Source of the DNA: a virus
IMG/VR virus record: IMGVR_UViG_3300023174_000094
Coordinates: 42,649-106,648 of that record
DNA length: 64,000 nucleotides
Strand: one strand, 5' to 3'
Below, piece after piece: positions 49,246-64,000 of this stretch (the stretch's first letter is position 1; every line of letters starts with the position of its first letter). The translations under genes were made by a program, and so were the position numbers. The notes under the pieces are model-generated. The model saw nothing but the letters and a program-made list of their open reading frames with translations, was not told where the DNA came from and searched no databases.

Positions 49246-49318
49246 GTATCCGTAGCTCAATGGATAGAGCAAAACACTTCTAATGTTTAGGTTATAGGTT
49301 CAAATCCTATCGGATACG
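49246..49318 (+). tRNA. tRNA-Arg(UCU)
   Basis: GTATCCG/CGGATAC acceptor, D-arm, AAACA-CTTCTAA-TGTTT anticodon arm, ATAGG-TTCAAAT-CCTAT T-arm; no encoded CCA. Confidence 0.92.
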
Positions 49319-49320
49319 CT

Positions 49321-57855: not shown

Positions 57856-58155
57856 CTACTTCTTAGAAGTAGACAAAATTGCGATCTGCGGTACGCCTGC
57901 TGGCGACCAACGGATAGCAACCTTCACGCCAGCAAGTTTGCCAGCCGAGCGTAGGTTCGCAGAAACGCGAGCCTTCTCAGTCTTGACAACTTCCGCTGGG
58001 GAAGTCATGTCAACTTTTTCAGAAGCGACTGCTAGAGCCTTACCCTTTGTAAGTTTACGCAATGCGTCTACCAACTCAGGATCAGCATTGGACTTGCGCC
58101 CACGCTGTACAAACTCTAACGCAGACTCGTCAATGATCTGATATTTATCAGCCAT
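57856..58155 (-). CDS. RGRKS-family basic protein (unit B)
   Basis: YQIIDESALEFVQRGRKS...KARVSANLRSAGK...IRW; GAGG RBS. Confidence 0.85.
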   Translation of the reverse strand: MADKYQIIDESALEFVQRGRKSNADPELVDALRKLTKGKALAVASEKVDMTSPAEVVKTEKARVSANLRSAGKLAGVKVAIRWSPAGVPQIAILSTSKK

Positions 58156-58506
58156 TATTACCTCTGTGTAAGTTTAGAAGTGACAACTACCTTATGCCTA
58201 AAGTAGCCTCGGTGTAATTTTTGGATCGTACACCCGAACCCTTCCCGCAACTTCTAGGCTGGACACCGAGAGCCAAAATTGCACACCTGTAATTTTACAG
58301 GGAACTCGCCTAATGGGGAACTCGGCTGGGGTCAACCAGCACTAATGACGATATCAAAGATTCTATGTAATAATAGGCTAATTCTAAAATTACATAAAGA
58401 TATTCTCTGACTGATATATCACCAAATCCCTAAAGTTACATAGACATAAACCCTAAAGTTACACGAATACAATTCCATAAAGTTACATGTATCTAATATT
58501 ACATTC

Positions 58507-58615
58507 CATAAAGATACTAAAGTTTTCTTACACTTGTGTAATATTACCGCAGGTGTAACTTTAGCAGAAAGTAAAGTTACACCTGCCTGTAATAATACAG
58601 GCGTGTAAAATTACA
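58507..58615. repeat. Five-box element H1 with 15-bp inverted repeat and 8-nt spacer
   Basis: GCAGGTGTAACTTTA-GCAGAAAG-TAAAGTTACACCTGC at 58549-58586. Confidence 0.85.
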
Positions 58616-58625
58616 CAGCTGTAAC

Positions 58626-58667
58626 AAAAGAGAGCCCCTCCCCAGGGGGTTGGGGAAGGGCTACTCT
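58626..58667 (-). terminator. Intrinsic terminator of unit C
   Basis: GC-rich hairpin with an A-run on the + strand side. Confidence 0.65.
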
Positions 58668-58687
58668 ATTCTTACACGCAGGTAAGT

Positions 58688-58963
58688 TTACTTGGCAACG
58701 ACTACCTGTGGAGTTCCGTCTGTTGCCCACATAATTTTGACATTGACTTTGGCTTGCTTGCCTGCCGAACGGATTGTTGCGGAGACACGAGCCTTGTCTG
58801 TCTTGAATGTGTCGGTCTTTGGGTTTAGTTTCATGTCTGTAATTTTTACTGCTTTACCCTTTGGCAAGGTCTTTAGTGCTTCTACCAATTCAGGTTCTAC
58901 ATTTGACTTGCGACCTCGTGGAGTAAACTCCAGTGCGGTTTCCTCAATGATTTGGAATTTCAT
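58688..58963 (-). CDS. RGRKS-family basic protein (unit C)
   Basis: MKFQIIEETALEFTPRGRKS...KARVSATIRSAGK; AAAGG RBS; TTGCAA-N17-TACCTT promoter. Confidence 0.85.
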   Translation of the reverse strand: MKFQIIEETALEFTPRGRKSNVEPELVEALKTLPKGKAVKITDMKLNPKTDTFKTDKARVSATIRSAGKQAKVNVKIMWATDGTPQVVVAK

Positions 58964-59246
58964 TTTTCTACCTTTGCGTGAGTACCGCCTAAGCGGTTGT
59001 CTAGGCGTTGTTGCTTTGACATATGTAAAGGTAATGGATAGGAATAGGAATTGCAAGGTAATGAGAATGTAACAATGTCGGGAAACCCAATGCCCATATG
59101 AGATATATCACGCTCATTGTTACAATTTGGTTACAAACCTATTTTTCGGTGTAAGTTTAGAAAAAGTCTATTATTACATGACCCCCATAAAGGATACAGC
59201 CTTATATTACATCTGGGTAACTTTCAGGGTTCGCCTTGTATTATTA

Positions 59247-59355
59247 CATAAAGATACTAAACTTTTATTACATGTGTGTAAAATTACAGCGGGCGTAACT
59301 TTAGCTTTATGTAAAGTTACGCCCGCCCGTATTGTTACATGCGTGTAATTTTACA
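59247..59355. repeat. Five-box element H2 with 15-bp inverted repeat and 8-nt spacer
   Basis: GCGGGCGTAACTTTA-GCTTTATG-TAAAGTTACGCCCGC at 59289-59326. Confidence 0.85.
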
Positions 59356-59369
59356 AACCAGGCGCAAAG

Positions 59370-59394
59370 AAAAACCCCCGCTTTTGGCGGGGGC
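59370..59394 (-). terminator. Intrinsic terminator of unit D
   Basis: AAAAA-CCCCCGC-TTTTG-GCGGGGG. Confidence 0.7.
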
Positions 59395-59415
59395 TAATCT
59401 TACTGCTGTGTAATT

Positions 59416-59508
59416 TTAGTCTTGTTCCATGTACCACGCTAACGCTACTGGAATAATTATCCATGACCAAAGAATAAAGACACCATAGATTATTTTTAGT
59501 ATGTTCAT
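59416..59508 (-). CDS. 30-aa hydrophobic peptide
   Basis: Read manually as MNILKIIYGVFILWSWIIIPVALAWYMEQD; AGGAG RBS. Confidence 0.5.
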   Translation of the reverse strand: MNILKIIYGVFILWSWIIIPVALAWYMEQD

Positions 59509-59526
59509 TGTTACACTCCTGTAAGT

Positions 59527-59772
59527 TTAGTTAGCCAATATATCTTCGGGTAGTTCGTCTGTAATGTCTCGCTCGTCTGCGCTCGCATCATCATCGTCTA
59601 TGTTCTGAGCAAAAATTACACTCATGTCAGTGTCGTCATCTTGCGCCTTATCGTTTTTGATAGAGCGTAGTAACTTCCCTAGTTCCTCTATGTTTTCAGC
59701 GTAGTAGAGAAAACTATCGCACCATTCCTGAGTGCCATTCTCAAACTGCCAAGATACCTCGTATGTGTTCAT
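59527..59772 (-). CDS. Small highly acidic protein
   Basis: GGGAG RBS; Asp/Glu-rich. Confidence 0.65.
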   Translation of the reverse strand: MNTYEVSWQFENGTQEWCDSFLYYAENIEELGKLLRSIKNDKAQDDDTDMSVIFAQNIDDDDASADERDITDELPEDILAN

Positions 59773-59789
59773 GTAATTTTACTCCCTTG

Positions 59790-60014
59790 TTATTTTTGGG
59801 TTTCGCCCAAAGTAGATGAATATGAATGATCACTATCCTCAATTTGTGTTGTGGTATTCAGAATACCGCAATACTTACAGGTTGCGTGTATTTGGGTAAT
59901 CGTATATTTGCCGTGTTGTGTCTCGGTTGAATCTGTACCAATGAACATATATTCATGGGCTAGATCATCTCGGTAATTTATTCTATTCCTAATCTTACAG
60001 GTAAGGTATGACAT
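59790..60014 (-). CDS. Small CxxC protein (first gene of unit D)
   Basis: GAAAGG RBS, leader hairpin and TAGGAT -10. Confidence 0.6.
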   Translation of the reverse strand: MSYLTCKIRNRINYRDDLAHEYMFIGTDSTETQHGKYTITQIHATCKYCGILNTTTQIEDSDHSYSSTLGETQK

Positions 60015-60177
60015 TTGTAATTTTAGCCTTTCTAACTTATTGGGCGGGATTACCCAACAAACAAATCCTACCCCATATCCTTATGTAAGTTTAGGTAATT
60101 TTAGGGTTATTTTTTACCTATAAAATGAGCTGTATTATTACATTCCCATAAAGGATGAGTTTTGTAATATTACATTA

Positions 60178-60258
60178 CATAAAGGTATTAAACTAATCTT
60201 ACACTTGTGTAATATTACTGCGGGTGTATGGGGTCGCTACGCTGGGGAAGACACCCGC
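60178..60258. repeat. Left-half element H3
   Basis: CATAAAG...TTACACTTGTGTAATATTAC, then GCGGGTGT...ACACCCGC. Confidence 0.7.
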
Positions 60259-60335
60259 CCGTTTGATGCGAATTTGCAACAACGGTGAAGTCCAATGAAT
60301 GGTACACGATGTTGCGCATTTGCAACAGTGTGTGC

Positions 60336-60368
60336 AAAAAAAAAGCGGGGGCATTTCTGCCCCCGCAA
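60336..60368 (-). terminator. Intrinsic terminator of unit E
   Basis: A9-GCGGGGGCA-TTTC-TGCCCCCGC. Confidence 0.85.
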
Positions 60369-60385
60369 TCTTTTTGTGTTTGTCG

Positions 60386-60814
60386 TTACTTGCGAACGAT
60401 GAACACCTTTTCTGCCTGTACCGAAAATGGTTCACGCTTTGCGATTGCATTGTTGGTTGCCCAAACAACATCAACGCTTGCCGTGATGATGTTGTTATTC
60501 TGCAACGATTGCAAACGCTGGCGGATTGCATTGTCTGCACGATAGTTGGTTGCTTTACGGCAAACCAAGTTTCGTTGAACTGATGGTGCATTATTTGCAA
60601 TGCACCACTGGCGCATGGCTTCGGCATTGTCAATCGTCTTTGGCATTACTGGCAACGACATTGCAACTGTGATTGCTTCAAGCAAAATAGTTGTACCTTT
60701 ATCGGTATAGAACTTTTTTACTTTGGCTTTGGAATTGCGTTGCGACTTTGCAACAAGTTTCTTTTCCAATGCAACAACTTTGGTTGCATCGGCTTTGCTT
60801 TTTTTCTGTGCCAT
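60386..60814 (-). CDS. Basic protein (unit E), paralog of 61657
   Basis: RADNAIRQRLQSL; TTGCGT-N18-TAGTAT promoter; AGGA RBS. Confidence 0.75.
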   Translation of the reverse strand: MAQKKSKADATKVVALEKKLVAKSQRNSKAKVKKFYTDKGTTILLEAITVAMSLPVMPKTIDNAEAMRQWCIANNAPSVQRNLVCRKATNYRADNAIRQRLQSLQNNNIITASVDVVWATNNAIAKREPFSVQAEKVFIVRK

Positions 60815-60997
60815 TTTTTTTCCTAATCTGTAAGTGCCAAGCGGATTACTTGACAACACAAATACTAGCGCAAGCGTGTAACACTACGCAAGCATCAAAA
60901 AACCCCTGTATTTATTGACTTTTTTGCATGTTTTCATAAAGCGAATTGCAATTACATTTATATACTAAAAATGGTACATAGTGTTGCATTTATGCAA

Positions 60998-61072
60998 CGG
61001 GTGTGCGTCTGCTACATTCTTGGGCAGCTCCACACCCGCCCGCCGTGTAATTTTACAGGCGTGTAATTTTAA
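60998..61072. repeat. Right-half element H4
   Basis: CGGGTGTG...CACACCCG, then GTGTAATTTTACAGGCGTGTAATTTTA. Confidence 0.7.
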
Positions 61073-61203
61073 GTTGAAAAATGGGGGGTTTCTAAACTTA
61101 CATAAAGGTAATTTTTGTACGCATTAAAGCTGGATAAAGGGGTATCAGTGTTTTGCTTGGTGCATGGAAAAACCCCCCGATTTCTCAGGGGGCTCATTCC
61201 CGT

Positions 61204-61344
61204 TTATTTCTTATTGTTTAGGTCTAGCCAGGTCTTAGACATTGTTACATCTTTGACCGCCTTCTCATAACCCGCCTCGTATGCGAACCATACGATTACG
61301 CCTGTTGCCATGAGAAACATGGTGAATAGTCCGAACCAATTCAC
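61204..61344 (-). CDS. 46-aa membrane peptide
   Basis: GTGA overlap with the upstream gene; terminator-like hairpin at about 61168-61193. Confidence 0.45.
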   Translation of the reverse strand: MNWFGLFTMFLMATGVIVWFAYEAGYEKAVKDVTMSKTWLDLNNKK

Positions 61345-61541
61345 GCAAGCCCCCAGACATTGAGCCAAGTTTCCATGATAACTTCGGCTTGAGCCTCATT
61401 CATGCATGGCATGGTAAATAGGTGACTATCTGAACTATCTCCCGTAGGGCTTGAGACCCATATTGTCAGGATATGTCCTGTTTTTACTACTGCTACGGGC
61501 ATTCCTTTCATTCGGATATTTGGTCTAATTTCGGTATTCAT
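61341..61541 (-). CDS. Hypothetical protein
   Basis: AAAGGA RBS; SSPTGDSSDSH motif. Confidence 0.6.
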   Translation of the reverse strand: MNTEIRPNIRMKGMPVAVVKTGHILTIWVSSPTGDSSDSHLFTMPCMNEAQAEVIMETWLNVWGLA

Positions 61542-61656
61542 AATGGTTTTTCCTTTTCTGTTGTTTTGTTTGTGTGTAATCATGTACTAAATTATCCCCC
61601 GATATCCCCCTACGCCCACGAGGGGGGGGGTAGGGGGGCTTTCGCCCCCCTCTCGC

Positions 61657-62127
61657 CTACCTTTTGGCGAATACCACGAGGTCGGCTATTTCGGGGTCGG
61701 TAGCCTTGACCTTCATACCGTAGGCGAGACCTCGGCGGGCTTGTACTGCCTTCACCCATGCCATGCCCTTGACAGTGGCGAGACTGTCTAGGCGTACTTG
61801 TATGGCGTTATCAGGTCGGTCATTGACCTCTGCAGGGCTCTTACTTGCCTTACCCTGTAGGTGCTTGTATCGCAATACTGCAGGCACTGTCACTGCCTTG
61901 CCTGCCTCGTATGCTACCGATACCTCTGCCTGCAGAGCCTCTACGCTCTTACCCTGTACCCATGCCTCTGCTACTGCAGTCAGTAGCACCATGTCCACAT
62001 AGGTAGCCTTGTGACCTGCCTTGAGGTCACGGGTACGCTCTGCCTCTACTGCCTTGAGGCTCTTGGCTACTAGAGCCTTTGCCTCGGTGCTCACCTTGTA
62101 GGTGAACCTTGCCTTTGGTGTTGCCAT
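61657..62127 (-). CDS. Basic protein (unit F), paralog of 60386
   Basis: RPDNAIQVRLDSL; TTGCTA-N17-TATCTT promoter; leader hairpin; GAAAGG RBS. Confidence 0.8.
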   Translation of the reverse strand: MATPKARFTYKVSTEAKALVAKSLKAVEAERTRDLKAGHKATYVDMVLLTAVAEAWVQGKSVEALQAEVSVAYEAGKAVTVPAVLRYKHLQGKASKSPAEVNDRPDNAIQVRLDSLATVKGMAWVKAVQARRGLAYGMKVKATDPEIADLVVFAKR

Positions 62128-62448
62128 GTCCTTGCCTTTCGCTTAGGTGTTGAGCCCGTTGCTCAACCTCATGTAATAAAAGATACAGGACATAGATACA
62201 CATAGCAAGCACTGACCTCATCTAAAACCCTTATAAAATAAGGCTTTTATGAATTGTTTAGAAATAGTTTCGGAATTGGGTGAAGAATTGGTTCATTCTG
62301 ACCTTGTAGGGCATTGACCATACCCAACATACCAATTTAGGTACACCGTAAAATACGGCATAACACTGTTTTAATATATACTCAATTTTTCTAAAAAAGG
62401 GCGTGGGCGGGAATTGGGCGGGAGCTGGTTTAAAATGCGGGAGAATAG

Positions 62449-62576
62449 AAAAGAGACCGCTTTGCGGGCGGTCTCTCTTTCCTCTCAGTGAACTATAACG
62501 GTCCTAAGATAGCGAAATTCGTTCTGCTCTGGTGATAGTGCAGATCACGATTGCCGCTTGACACTTTTAGGGTGCC
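62449..62576 (-). ncRNA. Predicted small RNA with a 30-nt segment antisense to 23S rRNA H69-H71
   Basis: TGATATAAT extended -10 at 62583-62591, two small hairpins, rRNA-complementary segment at 62491-62520 and terminator hairpin at 62452-62476. Confidence 0.65.
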
Positions 62577-62588
62577 ATAAGTATTATA

Positions 62589-62765
62589 TCACTTCTTAGA
62601 GTTGCGGTAAAATCCACTGCCTTTGAGCTCTATCATCGGCGGGGAATAGATTTGTTTTAGCGTAGCGTTGCACACCGAACAGTTCGGGCTTGAAATTTCT
62701 TCCAGAATGGATCTAAACTCAGAGTAGGGATGTCCATTGGAACACTTATAATCATACTGTGGCAT
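62589..62765 (-). CDS. FmdB-family zinc-ribbon protein (58 aa)
   Basis: Read manually as MPQYDYKC.NGH...CSVC...KQIYS.P.I..KGSGFY. Confidence 0.8.
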   Translation of the reverse strand: MPQYDYKCSNGHPYSEFRSILEEISSPNCSVCNATLKQIYSPPMIELKGSGFYRNSKK

Positions 62766-62796
62766 AGCTCATAAATTATACATGATATAATATATC

Positions 62797-63195
62797 ATGT
62801 ACGAATATAGAATTAAGAAGGTTTTGAAAGTTGTTGACGGAGATACCATTGATGTGGACATTGATCTGGGGTTTAATATCTCCTACACCCAAAGAGTTAG
62901 ACTGGCGGGAATTGATACCCCTGAATCTCGCACAAAAGACGCACGAGAGAAGGCATTGGGGCTTGAGGTAAAAGACAAGGTAAAGAAAGCCATTGATGCC
63001 GCAAAAACCGTTGTGGTAAAAACCGAGCTTCCTGATAGCTCTGAAAAGTACGGGCGTATTCTTGGTTGGGTATATCTTGATGGCGATACCCGTTCCCTTA
63101 ACGAACAGCTCATTGATGAGGGTTATGCTTGGGGATATATGGGTGAAACCAAAATCAAAGACTTTGACGCACTCCTGGCAAAGCGAAACAAGTAA
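62797..63195 (+). CDS. Thermonuclease (SNase family)
   Basis: VVDGDTI, RLAGIDTPE, KYGRIL and L..EGYA motifs; leaderless TGATATAAT. Confidence 0.92.
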   Translation: MYEYRIKKVLKVVDGDTIDVDIDLGFNISYTQRVRLAGIDTPESRTKDAREKALGLEVKDKVKKAIDAAKTVVVKTELPDSSEKYGRILGWVYLDGDTRSLNEQLIDEGYAWGYMGETKIKDFDALLAKRNK

Positions 63196-63397: not shown

Positions 63398-63948
63398 TTT
63401 CCCCCTTGAAAATCAATATTAACAACCATCCTAAATGGAGAGCGAACAGGGTTTGAGGCTGCGTGAATATTGCTGCCATCAAAGATGATAGCCCGCCCTG
63501 GTTTTGGATATACGGTGTCCTGGAGCTCGCATGCTTCATTAAAAAAGTAAGTTGGTCCATCTGAGTCGTTTATGTAATATAGAAGAACTTTATGGTCAAC
63601 AGGATCTCCGTTGTCGTACTGTAAATCAATATGAGGAACCTGAGATTCATAGTTCATCTTTGGGGGGTATGGAGAGGTTACATTTACCTTAGCCCGCAAA
63701 AGATTAATATTACCAAATCTATCTACCAGATTACCGACAAGCTTGCCAATTGCAGGTAGATGACTAGAGGCAATATCTGATTCAGATTCATACAGATGAT
63801 GTGACATCTGCATTGGTGCATGAGTCCACATTTCACCCTCGTGATAGATATGGCTACGATAGAACCGATAAGAAACTTGAGGGTCGGTAAAGTATTCATA
63901 CAGATACCCCTGTTCTTCTATGGGCACATAGTTATCAATAATCAACAT
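63394..63948 (-). CDS. 2OG-Fe(II) oxygenase-like protein
   Basis: PHID, LYYIND.DG.T, FDG...HA...P....R.V.N; likely start MLIIDN. Confidence 0.85.
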   Translation of the reverse strand: MLIIDNYVPIEEQGYLYEYFTDPQVSYRFYRSHIYHEGEMWTHAPMQMSHHLYESESDIASSHLPAIGKLVGNLVDRFGNINLLRAKVNVTSPYPPKMNYESQVPHIDLQYDNGDPVDHKVLLYYINDSDGPTYFFNEACELQDTVYPKPGRAIIFDGSNIHAASNPVRSPFRMVVNIDFQGGK

Positions 63949-64000
63949 GGCTGGCGAGGTAGGGCTTGAACCCACGACCCAGGGATTAACAGTCCCTTGC
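63948..64000 (-). tRNA. tRNA-Asn(GUU), partial (5' end outside window)
   Basis: AGGGA-CTGTTAA-TCCCT anticodon arm, GGTTCAAG T-loop and encoded CCA. Confidence 0.88.

What the first reader, a model, noticed from the sequence alone, without database searches (positions are those of the whole stretch)
62449..62591. Phage small RNA carrying a 30-nt antisense to 23S rRNA helices 69-71
Seen: + strand 62491-62520 reads AACTATAACGGTCCTAAGATAGCGAAATTC. Established (recalled from memory): conserved bacterial 23S rRNA at E. coli 1912-1941 reads AACUAUAACGGUCCUAAGGUAGCGAAAUUC, giving 29/30 identity. Seen: the segment sits in a minus-strand unit with a perfect extended -10 (TGATATAAT, 62591-62583), two short 5' hairpins (GGCAC/GUGUC and GUGAU/AUCAC) and a 9-bp hairpin plus UUUU (62476-62449). 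The transcript would therefore be antisense to rRNA. The only mismatch (62509) puts U opposite G1930, a G-U wobble, which is what selection on RNA-RNA pairing predicts. The rRNA helix-69 5' strand is not retained, arguing against an rRNA mimic. Inference: a ribosome-targeting phage sRNA. It could (a) block subunit joining or ribosome assembly at bridge B2a, (b) shield the helix/loop-70 UUCCU site at 1939-1943, which mycobacterial MazF toxins are known to cut, acting as an anti-abortive-infection guard, or (c) guide modification. A DNA-level alternative is a decoy or att site, since this is also the I-CeuI recognition sequence and a group I intron insertion hotspot.
Basis: partly seen in the sequence, partly recalled or inferred. 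Interest (0 to 1): 0.92.

Follow-up and report, generated by a model that had tools for sequence, protein, structure and literature searches.

The report
Phage small RNA antisense to 23S
This uncultured lake phage carries a gene for a roughly 130-base RNA whose conserved core is the complement of helix 69-70 of bacterial 23S ribosomal RNA, one member of a large, undescribed class of phage RNAs that probably pair with the host's large ribosomal subunit RNA; nobody has tested this yet.

Summary
It lies in a compact minus-strand unit: extended -10, structured 5' domain, anti-rRNA segment, terminator.

It is neither chance nor an assembly chimera. About 35 independent viral and metagenome contigs keep the unit. 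The 16-base core (1914-1929) occurs in at least 120 viral contigs, against 19 for a reversed control.

Family-wide evidence fixes the minus strand, which is antisense to rRNA:
- G-U pairs in the terminator hairpin favour the minus strand.
- In half of the 72 unique upstream contexts a -10 box sits exactly 13 nt before the core.
- Helices show compensatory changes.
- Some families carry the second rRNA-complementary piece in permuted order, inside the terminator loop. A DNA site or a sense mimic cannot explain that.

Best reading: a trans-acting RNA that pairs with 23S helix 69-70, most likely on nascent or free 50S, blocking helix 69 and bridge B2a. The pairing target is well supported. The effect is inferred.

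The MazF-shield, modification-guide and DNA-site ideas are not supported. Whether the one mismatch is a G-U wobble depends on the unknown host.

Transcription was not shown. I found no paper or Rfam family. This scan has noted the same class in at least 68 other genomes.

The parts
62583..62611 (-). Promoter: -35-like TTTACC (62611-62606), 17-nt spacer, extended -10 TGATATAAT (62591-62583). Predicted start near 62576.
   Evidence: Consensus scan, 10/12 with TG. TGnTATAMT is kept in types A and B even where a 22-nt insertion separates it from the upstream stop codon. The invariant block starts at 62577.
62559..62577 (-). 5' hairpin P1 (UGGCAC ... GUGUCA), containing one G-U pair that would be A-C on the + strand.
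   Evidence: Predicted fold, z = -5.1 for the minus strand against -2.4 for the plus strand. Invariant in 8 type A/A' members.
62511..62558 (-). 5' domain. Base helix AGCGG (62558-62554) pairs with UCGCU (62515-62511), which is part of the anti-rRNA segment. Inner helices are UCGU/ACGA and UCUGC/GCAGA.
   Evidence: Fold. L152 has the compensatory change CUGC/GCAG to CUAC/GUAG. Type B has a different 5' domain but the same kind of base helix, AGCG/CGCU, with 10 compensatory pairs in its alignment.
62491..62520 (-). Anti-rRNA segment: complement of 23S 1912-1941. 62509 is the single difference (U opposite position 1930). The family-wide core, CUUAGGACCGUUAUAG, is 62508-62493 (23S 1914-1929).
   Evidence: The part complementary to the helix 69 loop (62501-62492) is predicted unpaired.
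62483..62509 (-). Seed hairpin: UCUUAGGA pairs with the linker UCACUGAGA and presents CCGUUAUAGU in its loop.
   Evidence: Folds. The linker CUGAGA / CUAAGA / CCAAGA is kept in types A and B. Extra hairpins are inserted only between seed and linker.
62445..62477 (-). Intrinsic terminator: 10-bp G+C-rich stem (62477-62468 with 62460-62451), then UUUUCUAU.
   Evidence: Compensatory CCGC/GCGG to CCAC/GUGG and other stem variants. Across families the hairpin is more stable on the minus strand. In this window the tail is T-rich on both strands.
62589..62765 (-). Upstream, co-oriented 58-aa zinc-ribbon gene (FmdB-like, PF09723). Its stop codon overlaps the -10 box.
   Evidence: Pfam and PHROG matches. 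A homolog lies just upstream on the same strand in 43 loci of four RNA types.

Best explanation
62576 to about 62446 (minus strand) is a phage gene for a trans-acting small RNA of about 130 nt.

Proposed architecture:
- It is made from its own extended -10 promoter, and possibly also by read-through from the zinc-ribbon gene upstream. It ends at an intrinsic terminator.
- A hairpin presents the complement of the helix 69 loop as an unpaired loop.

Proposed action (inferred):
- Pairing starts on the helix 69 loop of 23S rRNA.
- It spreads through the 3' strand of helix 69 (core 1914-1929).
- In this type it then runs on to 1941, displacing the RNA's own base helix.

Most likely target state: nascent 23S rRNA, late 50S precursors or free 50S. 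There domain IV is still open, and in E. coli the helix 69 loop modifications, one of which (m3-pseudouridine 1915) blocks Watson-Crick pairing, are added late. That is established knowledge for E. coli, not tested here. The bound rRNA cannot form helix 69 and bridge B2a, so new or free 50S subunits are kept out of translation. I read this as a form of host ribosome shut-off or diversion.

Shown: conservation, strand, architecture, and the rRNA as the reference sequence.
Inferred: the pairing in vivo, the target state and the consequence.
For: 1. 29/30 identity to 23S, in antisense orientation to a promoter-terminator unit.

2. The unit is kept in about 35 viral and metagenome contigs, in three types (A, B, C) whose 5' domains differ while the core is unchanged.

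Only one hit is true rRNA. About 78 of 85 unique contexts have a hairpin plus T tail directly 3' of the core on the minus strand.

4. Strand tests.
- That hairpin is more stable on the minus strand in 84 of 113 unique contexts, against 23 for the plus strand. G-U pairs number 313 against 119. Wilcoxon p = 1e-12, with related sequences not being independent.
- A TAnnnT box starts exactly 13 nt before the core in 36 of 72 unique upstream contexts.

5. Identity to rRNA extends to different lengths in different families (1910-1929, 1914-1936, 1911-1941), so the rRNA is the common reference.

6. In 12 of 82 unique contexts the complement of 1930-1937 sits in the terminator loop, 3' of the core. That is permuted relative to the rRNA (shuffle mean 1.05, max 5).

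7. Covariation: 10 of 47 pairs are compensatory in type B, and there is one compensatory change in type A.

8. Differences from rRNA inside the paired stretch are mostly G to A or U to C, which keep a wobble pair in the antisense direction: positions 1930, 1933, 1917, 1939 and 1940.

9. Helix 69 can be reached by antisense oligomers. A PNA against it inhibited E. coli growth (Kulik et al. 2017, as reported in PMC7038079).

10. An antisense RNA pairing with a 23S-5S precursor is documented in H. pylori (PMC6582327).
Against: - No transcript was shown. RNA-library contigs over the 30-mer are real rRNA. The one contig of a relative in a metatranscriptome runs past both the promoter and the terminator.
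- The host is unknown and there is no cultured relative, so target pairing is untested.
- rRNA is very abundant and helix 69 is base-paired in mature subunits, so stoichiometric action on mature ribosomes is doubtful.
- Phages need ribosomes, so the benefit of blocking them is not obvious.
- Part of the anti-rRNA segment (UCGCU) is predicted to be paired inside the RNA.
- In this window the terminator hairpin is bidirectional and a strong + strand promoter consensus overlaps the unit.
- Two differences do not fit wobble pairing: 1918 in L023 and 1938 in L192.
Confidence: 0.55

Rival explanations
1. Same RNA and same pairing, but the purpose is destruction. The 25-30-bp duplex with nascent 23S is a substrate for host RNase III or other nucleases. 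rRNA is cut and degraded, which stops ribosome synthesis and frees nucleotides for phage replication in a nutrient-poor lake host.
For: The long types form a near-perfect duplex of 25-31 bp, which is long enough for RNase III (established knowledge). An asRNA-rRNA precursor duplex is cleaved by RNase III in H. pylori (PMC6582327). The phage encodes a ribonucleotide reductase, which shows investment in nucleotide supply.
Against: Most families pair over only 16-20 nt, which is short for RNase III. The phage has no RNase III of its own. There are no cleavage data.
Confidence: 0.15
2. Protective shield or anti-defence. The RNA covers helix 69-70 so that a host toxin or abortive-infection nuclease or modifier that inactivates ribosomes (for example a MazF-type cut at UUCCU 1939-1943) cannot act during infection.
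For: Capsid and RNR similarities point loosely to actinobacterial phages.
Against: The family-wide core is 1914-1929/30, and most members never reach 1939. The window's segment stops at 1941 and then reads G, not C. An RNA bound to helix 69 would itself block subunit joining. I know of no toxin that targets 1914-1929.
Confidence: 0.1
3. The RNA's real target is something else, such as an mRNA or a protein bound by the 5' domain or the zinc-ribbon partner. Under this reading rRNA acts only as a sponge or sensor that sets the level of free RNA.
For: The 5' domains are conserved within types and differ between types. A zinc-ribbon gene is linked in 43 loci. rRNA abundance would make it an effective sponge.
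Against: The only element shared by all families is the anti-rRNA core. Many families consist of nothing but core plus terminator.
Confidence: 0.08
4. DNA-level element: a homing-endonuclease (I-CeuI-like) site or decoy, or an attP core for integration into 23S rDNA.
For: A 30-bp identity with a host gene is typical of att cores.
Against: The genome has no tyrosine or serine recombinase and no LAGLIDADG gene. Only 16 bp are shared family-wide. The pieces are permuted in 12 contexts. The promoter and the G-U-containing terminator are conserved at fixed distances.
Confidence: 0.03
5. Plus-strand RNA that mimics part of 23S (helix 69 loop and 3' strand) as a decoy for an rRNA-binding or rRNA-modifying protein.
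For: A strong + strand promoter consensus (TTGACA-N18-TATTAT) lies nearby, though it points away from the segment. The hairpin also has a T-rich tail on the + strand.
Against: The 5' strand of helix 69 is absent. That promoter is not conserved in types B and C. The helices contain G-U pairs that become A-C on the + strand. Permuted order would destroy a mimic.
Confidence: 0.03

Closest known systems
Trans-encoded base-pairing small RNAs of bacteria and phages (RybB / OmrA-B type: short conserved seed plus Rho-independent terminator)
   Same: Own promoter, short invariant seed, intrinsic terminator with U tail, and variable rest. In the short relatives the seed is the very 5' end.
   Different: Known members target mRNAs, usually with imperfect pairing of 7-12 nt. 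Here the partner is the conserved core of 23S rRNA, with 16-31 nt of near-perfect pairing. No chaperone is known, and the phage has no Hfq.
Loop-presenting antisense RNAs of plasmids (CopA/CopT of R1, RNA I/RNA II of ColE1)
   Same: The complement of a target hairpin loop is displayed in a hairpin loop, which suggests a kissing start followed by helix propagation.
   Different: Those RNAs are cis-encoded opposite their target and control replication. This one is trans-encoded by a virus against a host rRNA.
Cis-antisense RNA to the 23S-5S rRNA precursor of Helicobacter pylori (PMC6582327)
   Same: A natural antisense RNA pairs with an rRNA precursor and alters its processing.
   Different: That RNA is host-encoded, overlaps the precursor leader rather than the mature functional core, and is cis-encoded.
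Synthetic anti-helix-69 peptide nucleic acid (Kulik et al. 2017, as cited in PMC7038079)
   Same: Same target helix, same antisense principle. It inhibits E. coli growth.
   Different: It is a man-made oligomer. The phage RNA would be a natural counterpart.
Archaeal and eukaryotic C/D-box guide RNAs
   Same: Small RNAs with 10-21 nt complementary to rRNA.
   Different: No conserved C/D boxes or k-turn here, and bacteria have no partner enzymes for them. The CUGA after the core is not conserved.

Membership tests
Trans-acting base-pairing sRNA | Independent transcription unit: promoter and intrinsic terminator on one strand | tested here: met
   Extended -10 with -35-like hexamer. Hairpin plus U tail. 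Both are conserved with compensatory changes. The family-wide strand tests favour the minus strand.
Trans-acting base-pairing sRNA | Conserved seed that is accessible for pairing | tested here: inconclusive
   The core is invariant across families. The half facing the helix 69 loop is predicted unpaired, while the rest is in weak or internal helices. This is prediction only.
Trans-acting base-pairing sRNA | The RNA is actually made | tested here: inconclusive
   Four RNA-library runs were laid. Depth over the 30-mer is true rRNA. One low-depth contig of a relative overruns both ends.
Trans-acting base-pairing sRNA | Pairing with the proposed target changes its fate | not testable with these tools
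   Needs binding, cross-linking and expression experiments.
Bacterial LSU rRNA gene or fragment (Rfam RF02541) / assembly chimera with host rRNA | Match to the LSU covariance model beyond a short word; rRNA flanks | tested here: not met
   No LSU hit in the window at the gathering threshold or at E up to 10. Identity stops at 30 nt. The same junctions recur in many independent contigs.
LAGLIDADG homing site (I-CeuI type) or group I intron insertion site | Endonuclease or intron present; full colinear recognition site of about 19-26 bp conserved | tested here: not met
   No LAGLIDADG_1 or LAGLIDADG_3 in the genome. Only 16 bp are shared family-wide. The pieces are permuted in 12 contexts.
Phage attP core | Integrase in the genome, usually adjacent | tested here: not met
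   No Phage_integrase and no Resolvase family match in the 106.6-kb genome, which CheckV rates 100% complete.
C/D-box modification guide RNA | Conserved C (RUGAUGA) and D (CUGA) boxes at fixed distance from the guide | tested here: not met
   The CUGA after the core shifts by 3-4 nt in close relatives (type A) and is absent in type B. There is no conserved C box.
Shield of the MazF UUCCU site (23S 1939-1943) | Complementarity covering the whole cleavage motif, conserved across the family | tested here: not met
   Pairing ends at 1941 in the window, and the next base differs. Most families end at 1929-1931.

The most novel reading that the evidence does not exclude
Phages of freshwater bacteria use a dedicated class of small RNAs as natural antisense inhibitors of the ribosome. 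By pairing with helix 69-70 of 23S rRNA they trap late 50S precursors or free 50S and stop subunit joining. This would be an RNA-only host take-over mechanism aimed at the most conserved part of the translation machinery. It appears in several architectures: a 5' seed; colinear 30-nt pairing with a switchable 5' domain, as here; and permuted two-site pairing through the terminator loop.
Probability: 0.4. Interest if true: 0.9.

Novelty: new variant of a known kind. Interest (0 to 1): 0.8.

Why it matters
No natural small RNA, viral or cellular, is known to me that targets the functional core of a mature-sequence bacterial rRNA. My searches of 8 million papers and of Rfam 15 found none.

If the pairing is real, it would mean the following:
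- Phages have a previously unseen way of acting on ribosomes.
- The target is nearly universal, so the RNAs could be tested in any laboratory bacterium.
- They would give a natural proof of principle for antisense antibacterials aimed at helix 69.
- They would provide a tool for stalling 50S assembly at a defined step.
- The class is abundant in lake viromes, so it would also bear on how phages manage host resources in slow-growing, ribosome-poor cells.

Tried and rejected
1. Expression. I laid four RNA-library runs on 62000-63000. The very deep cover of 62491-62523 is genuine 23S rRNA, as the loose ends are rRNA flanks. One 315-nt, low-depth contig of a type A' relative in a metatranscriptome overruns both promoter and terminator. 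This is no evidence for or against transcription.

2. Cultured relatives. blastn of the locus, of a short-family locus and of the 61-nt core against 50,697 phage records found nothing, or only host 23S contamination.

3. Host. RNR is nearest to a Maribacter phage and to Thermus and Mycobacterium phages. The capsid protein is 52% identical to those of Streptomyces phages. This gives only a loose hint of an actinobacterial host.

4. Restriction-site avoidance as the reason for G1930A, which destroys CCTNAGG. Rejected: the genome has 8 such sites against 9.5 expected.

5. Host rRNA with A at 1930.
- None among the GTDB species representatives.
- Rare real 23S genes with A exist in metagenomes. 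Two of them are human-saliva nanopore assemblies, which is the wrong habitat.
- One, L138, also shares the G after 1941, giving 33/33 with the window, but its organism could not be named.
- Left unresolved.

6. No rRNA-like stretch of 18 nt or more other than the 30-mer exists in this genome.

7. Partner enzymes in the phage (RNase III, Rnl2-type RNA ligase, Hfq). None found.

8. RNAduplex of the RNA against a 130-nt rRNA fragment over-extended into a meaningless global duplex. Not used.

9. Rfam at a permissive threshold gave only chance-level hits (STnc70, mir-128) on the hairpin.

Full report
**What is there**

The window is the last 64 kb of a 106,648-bp IMG/VR virus record. The record's first and last 331 bp repeat each other with 2 mismatches, so the genome is circular or terminally redundant. 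A tRNA-Asn gene spans the junction.

A true 23S fragment (L009) has the same 30 bases with G instead of A at the position of 62509.

The phage holds one copy. No other stretch of 18 nt or more resembles 16S, 23S or 5S rRNA.

The 30-mer lies in a 460-bp gap between two minus-strand genes: an unknown 156-aa ORF (62127-61657) and a 58-aa zinc-ribbon ORF (62765-62589; PF09723, FmdB-like). A staphylococcal-nuclease-like gene diverges at 62797.

**The unit**

Read on the minus strand, the order is:
- TTTACC, 17 nt, then TGATATAAT (62611-62583);
- a conserved RNA body starting at 62577/62576;
- the complement of 23S 1912-1941 (62520-62491);
- a linker;
- a 10-bp G+C-rich hairpin followed by UUUUCUAU (62477-62445).

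The minus strand folds better than the plus strand relative to shuffles (-47.6 kcal/mol, z = -5.1, against -44.0, z = -2.4).

In the predicted fold:
- the RNA starts with a hairpin (62577-62559);
- a base helix pairs AGCGG (62558-62554) with UCGCU inside the anti-rRNA segment (62515-62511);
- the core forms a weak hairpin with the linker that leaves CCGUUAUAGU, the complement of the helix 69 loop, unpaired.

In this one window the terminator hairpin has T-rich tails both ways, and a good + strand promoter consensus overlaps the 5' domain. The window alone therefore does not settle the strand.

**Relatives of the window's own type**

Exact-pattern scans found the A-variant core in 18 further viral contigs and about 30 metagenome contigs. 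They fall into three types.

*Type A (window-like).* The whole body from the start site to the end of the core is invariant in 8 distinct members, with two exceptions: a 1-nt insertion, and one double change in L152 that keeps a helix (CUGC/GCAG to CUAC/GUAG). The flanks diverge, and extra hairpins are inserted only between core and linker.

*Type B.* It has a different 5' domain. RNAalifold on 10 members gives 47 pairs, 10 of them with compensatory changes. There are many G-U pairs that would be A-C on the other strand. The base helix again pairs the RNA's 5' end (AGCG, ACUC) with the anti-rRNA extension.

*Type C.* The same extension forms a small palindromic hairpin.

TGnTATAMT is kept at the same distance in types A and B, even where a 22-nt insertion separates it from the zinc-ribbon stop codon. 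The + strand TTGACA box is not kept in B or C.

The terminator stem shows several compensatory variants.

A zinc-ribbon homolog lies directly upstream on the same strand in 43 loci. These cover types A, A', B and C and a further family with a GNRA hairpin before the core.

**The wider class**

The same letters reversed occur in 19. Only one of the hits is true rRNA.

Evidence that these are minus-strand RNA genes:
- About 78 of 85 unique contexts have a strong hairpin and T-rich tail right after the core on the minus strand.
- That hairpin is more stable on the minus strand in 84 of 113 unique contexts, against 23 for the plus strand. G-U pairs number 313 against 119.
- In 36 of 72 unique upstream contexts a TAnnnT box starts exactly 13 nt before the core. 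In those families the core is therefore the 5' end of a roughly 60-nt RNA.

Evidence that the rRNA is the reference sequence:
- Identity to rRNA runs on to different points in different families: 1910-1929, 1914-1936 and 1911-1941.
- In 12 of 82 unique contexts the terminator's apical loop carries UCGCUA(C/U)C, the complement of 1930-1937, downstream of the core. This order is permuted relative to the rRNA. Shuffles give a mean of 1.05 and a maximum of 5.

Permuted, two-site complementarity makes sense only for RNA-RNA pairing with the rRNA. It does not fit a DNA recognition site or a sense-strand mimic.

No Rfam family matches the window or 14 diverse loci. I found no paper describing such RNAs.

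Notes of this scan report the same class in at least 68 other genomes. I reached the points above from my own calls.

**The single mismatch**

All members retrieved with the long pattern carry A at 1930 by construction. The unbiased 16-mer scan shows two things:
- every member whose rRNA match runs on to 1938 or 1941 has A at 1930;
- L123, a close relative of type C, instead has G at 1930 and A at 1933.

Other interior differences are U to C at 1917, 1939 and 1940. All of these keep a wobble pair in the antisense direction. Two differences do not: 1918 in L023 and 1938 in L192. The latter equals a natural rRNA variant seen in L212. By a rough count this excess is only marginally significant (about p = 0.05).

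Whether U faces G or A depends on the host:
- No 23S of 185,579 species representatives has the A-variant word.
- The one element found in a bacterial MAG (L023) has A, while that MAG's own 23S has G.
- Real 23S genes with A do exist in metagenomes.

I favour the wobble reading, at about 0.7, but leave it open. Avoidance of the CCTNAGG site does not explain the change.

**What it most likely does**

The core shared by every family retrieved with the 16-mer covers the helix 69 loop, its 3' strand and the first bases beyond it. This region forms intersubunit bridge B2a. From established work on 50S assembly, it is among the last parts of 23S to fold. In E. coli its loop modifications, one of which blocks Watson-Crick pairing, are added late.

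I therefore propose that the RNA captures nascent 23S, late precursors or free 50S, and prevents formation of helix 69 and hence of 70S ribosomes. The window's type adds a 12-nt extension that is masked by the RNA's own base helix. This suggests a toehold-then-displacement mode of binding.

A synthetic PNA against helix 69 inhibits E. coli (PMC7038079), and a natural antisense RNA acts on an rRNA precursor in H. pylori (PMC6582327). The principle is therefore plausible.

The consequence remains inferred. It could be a block of assembly or joining, a trigger for rRNA decay, or, less likely, a shield or a sponge.

The phage encodes no RNase III, Rnl2-type ligase, Hfq, integrase or LAGLIDADG enzyme.

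**Limits**

- No transcript was demonstrated.
- The host is unknown; there are only weak hints of an actinobacterial host.
- No cultured relative exists.
- The sequences used for the strand and position statistics are related, so the p-values overstate independence.

**Verdict**

Its MazF-shield, guide and DNA-site options are not. Its wobble argument is plausible but unproven.

Noticed in passing
window 62352-62445: A conserved non-coding block lies on the far side of the shared hairpin. It has an AT-rich box (TTTTAATATATACTCAATTTTTCTAAAAAA), then GGGCGTGGGCGGGAATTGGGCGGG (62399-62424), which has four or more G-tracts and so G-quadruplex potential. G-runs followed by ATAGAAA recur before the hairpin in types B and C. 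This could be a second, + strand RNA ending at the same bidirectional hairpin, or a protein-binding site.
   Followed up: partly
window 63670-64000 and genome start: The record's first and last 331 bp are the same sequence (2 mismatches), so the 'linear' record is a complete circular or terminally redundant genome of about 106.3 kb. A tRNA-Asn(GTT) gene spans the junction, and a tRNA-Arg(TCT) gene lies at 49246-49319.
   Followed up: yes
whole genome (G000): Many 6-nt palindromes are completely absent: AACGTT 0 against 19 expected, CCATGG 0 against 20, ATCGAT 0 against 15, ACCGGT 0 against 11.5. This indicates strong restriction-site avoidance.
   Followed up: partly
window 62780-62800: A near-perfect 21-bp palindrome (one mismatch), ACATGATATAATATATCATGT, lies between the divergent zinc-ribbon and nuclease genes. 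It gives TGATATAAT on the + strand, and a TATAAT lies only 9 nt before the zinc-ribbon ATG on the minus strand (possible leaderless mRNA).
   Followed up: no
L030, L048, L105, L125, L061, L065, L108, L078, L029, L086, L110, L119 (around the 16-mer): In these families the complement of 23S 1930-1937 sits in the terminator loop, 3' of the core. Stems differ completely between families while the loop is kept. Both C and U occur opposite position 1930.
   Followed up: yes
about 60 loci such as L024, L041, L058 (within 2 kb of the 16-mer): The largest short-seed family lies in a fixed recombination/replication module: a PD-(D/E)XK-like nuclease, a 202-aa protein, an HNH endonuclease directly upstream of the RNA, then RuvC-like and ParB-like genes downstream.
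   Followed up: partly
L147, L183, L138, L143, L173, L170: These are real bacterial-type 23S genes with A at position 1930. L147 and L183 are full rRNA operons from human-saliva nanopore assemblies and are 30/30 identical to the window's 30-mer. L138 also has G at 1942, giving 33/33. Their organisms were not identified.
   Followed up: partly
L139, L157, L189: Contigs of 18-38 kb match the LSU model only in fragments and have few ORFs around them. The sequence looks cyanobacterial or plastid-like and has A at 1930. They may be degenerate or organellar rRNA.
   Followed up: no
window 62226-62252: A conserved inverted repeat (ACCCTTAT..ATAAGGG) has T-rich tails on both strands, between the RNA unit and the 156-aa ORF. 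It is probably a bidirectional terminator.
   Followed up: no
window 58000-62200: G+C rises from about 33% to 40-45% here. The minus-strand ORFs in this stretch match no Pfam or PHROG family.
   Followed up: no
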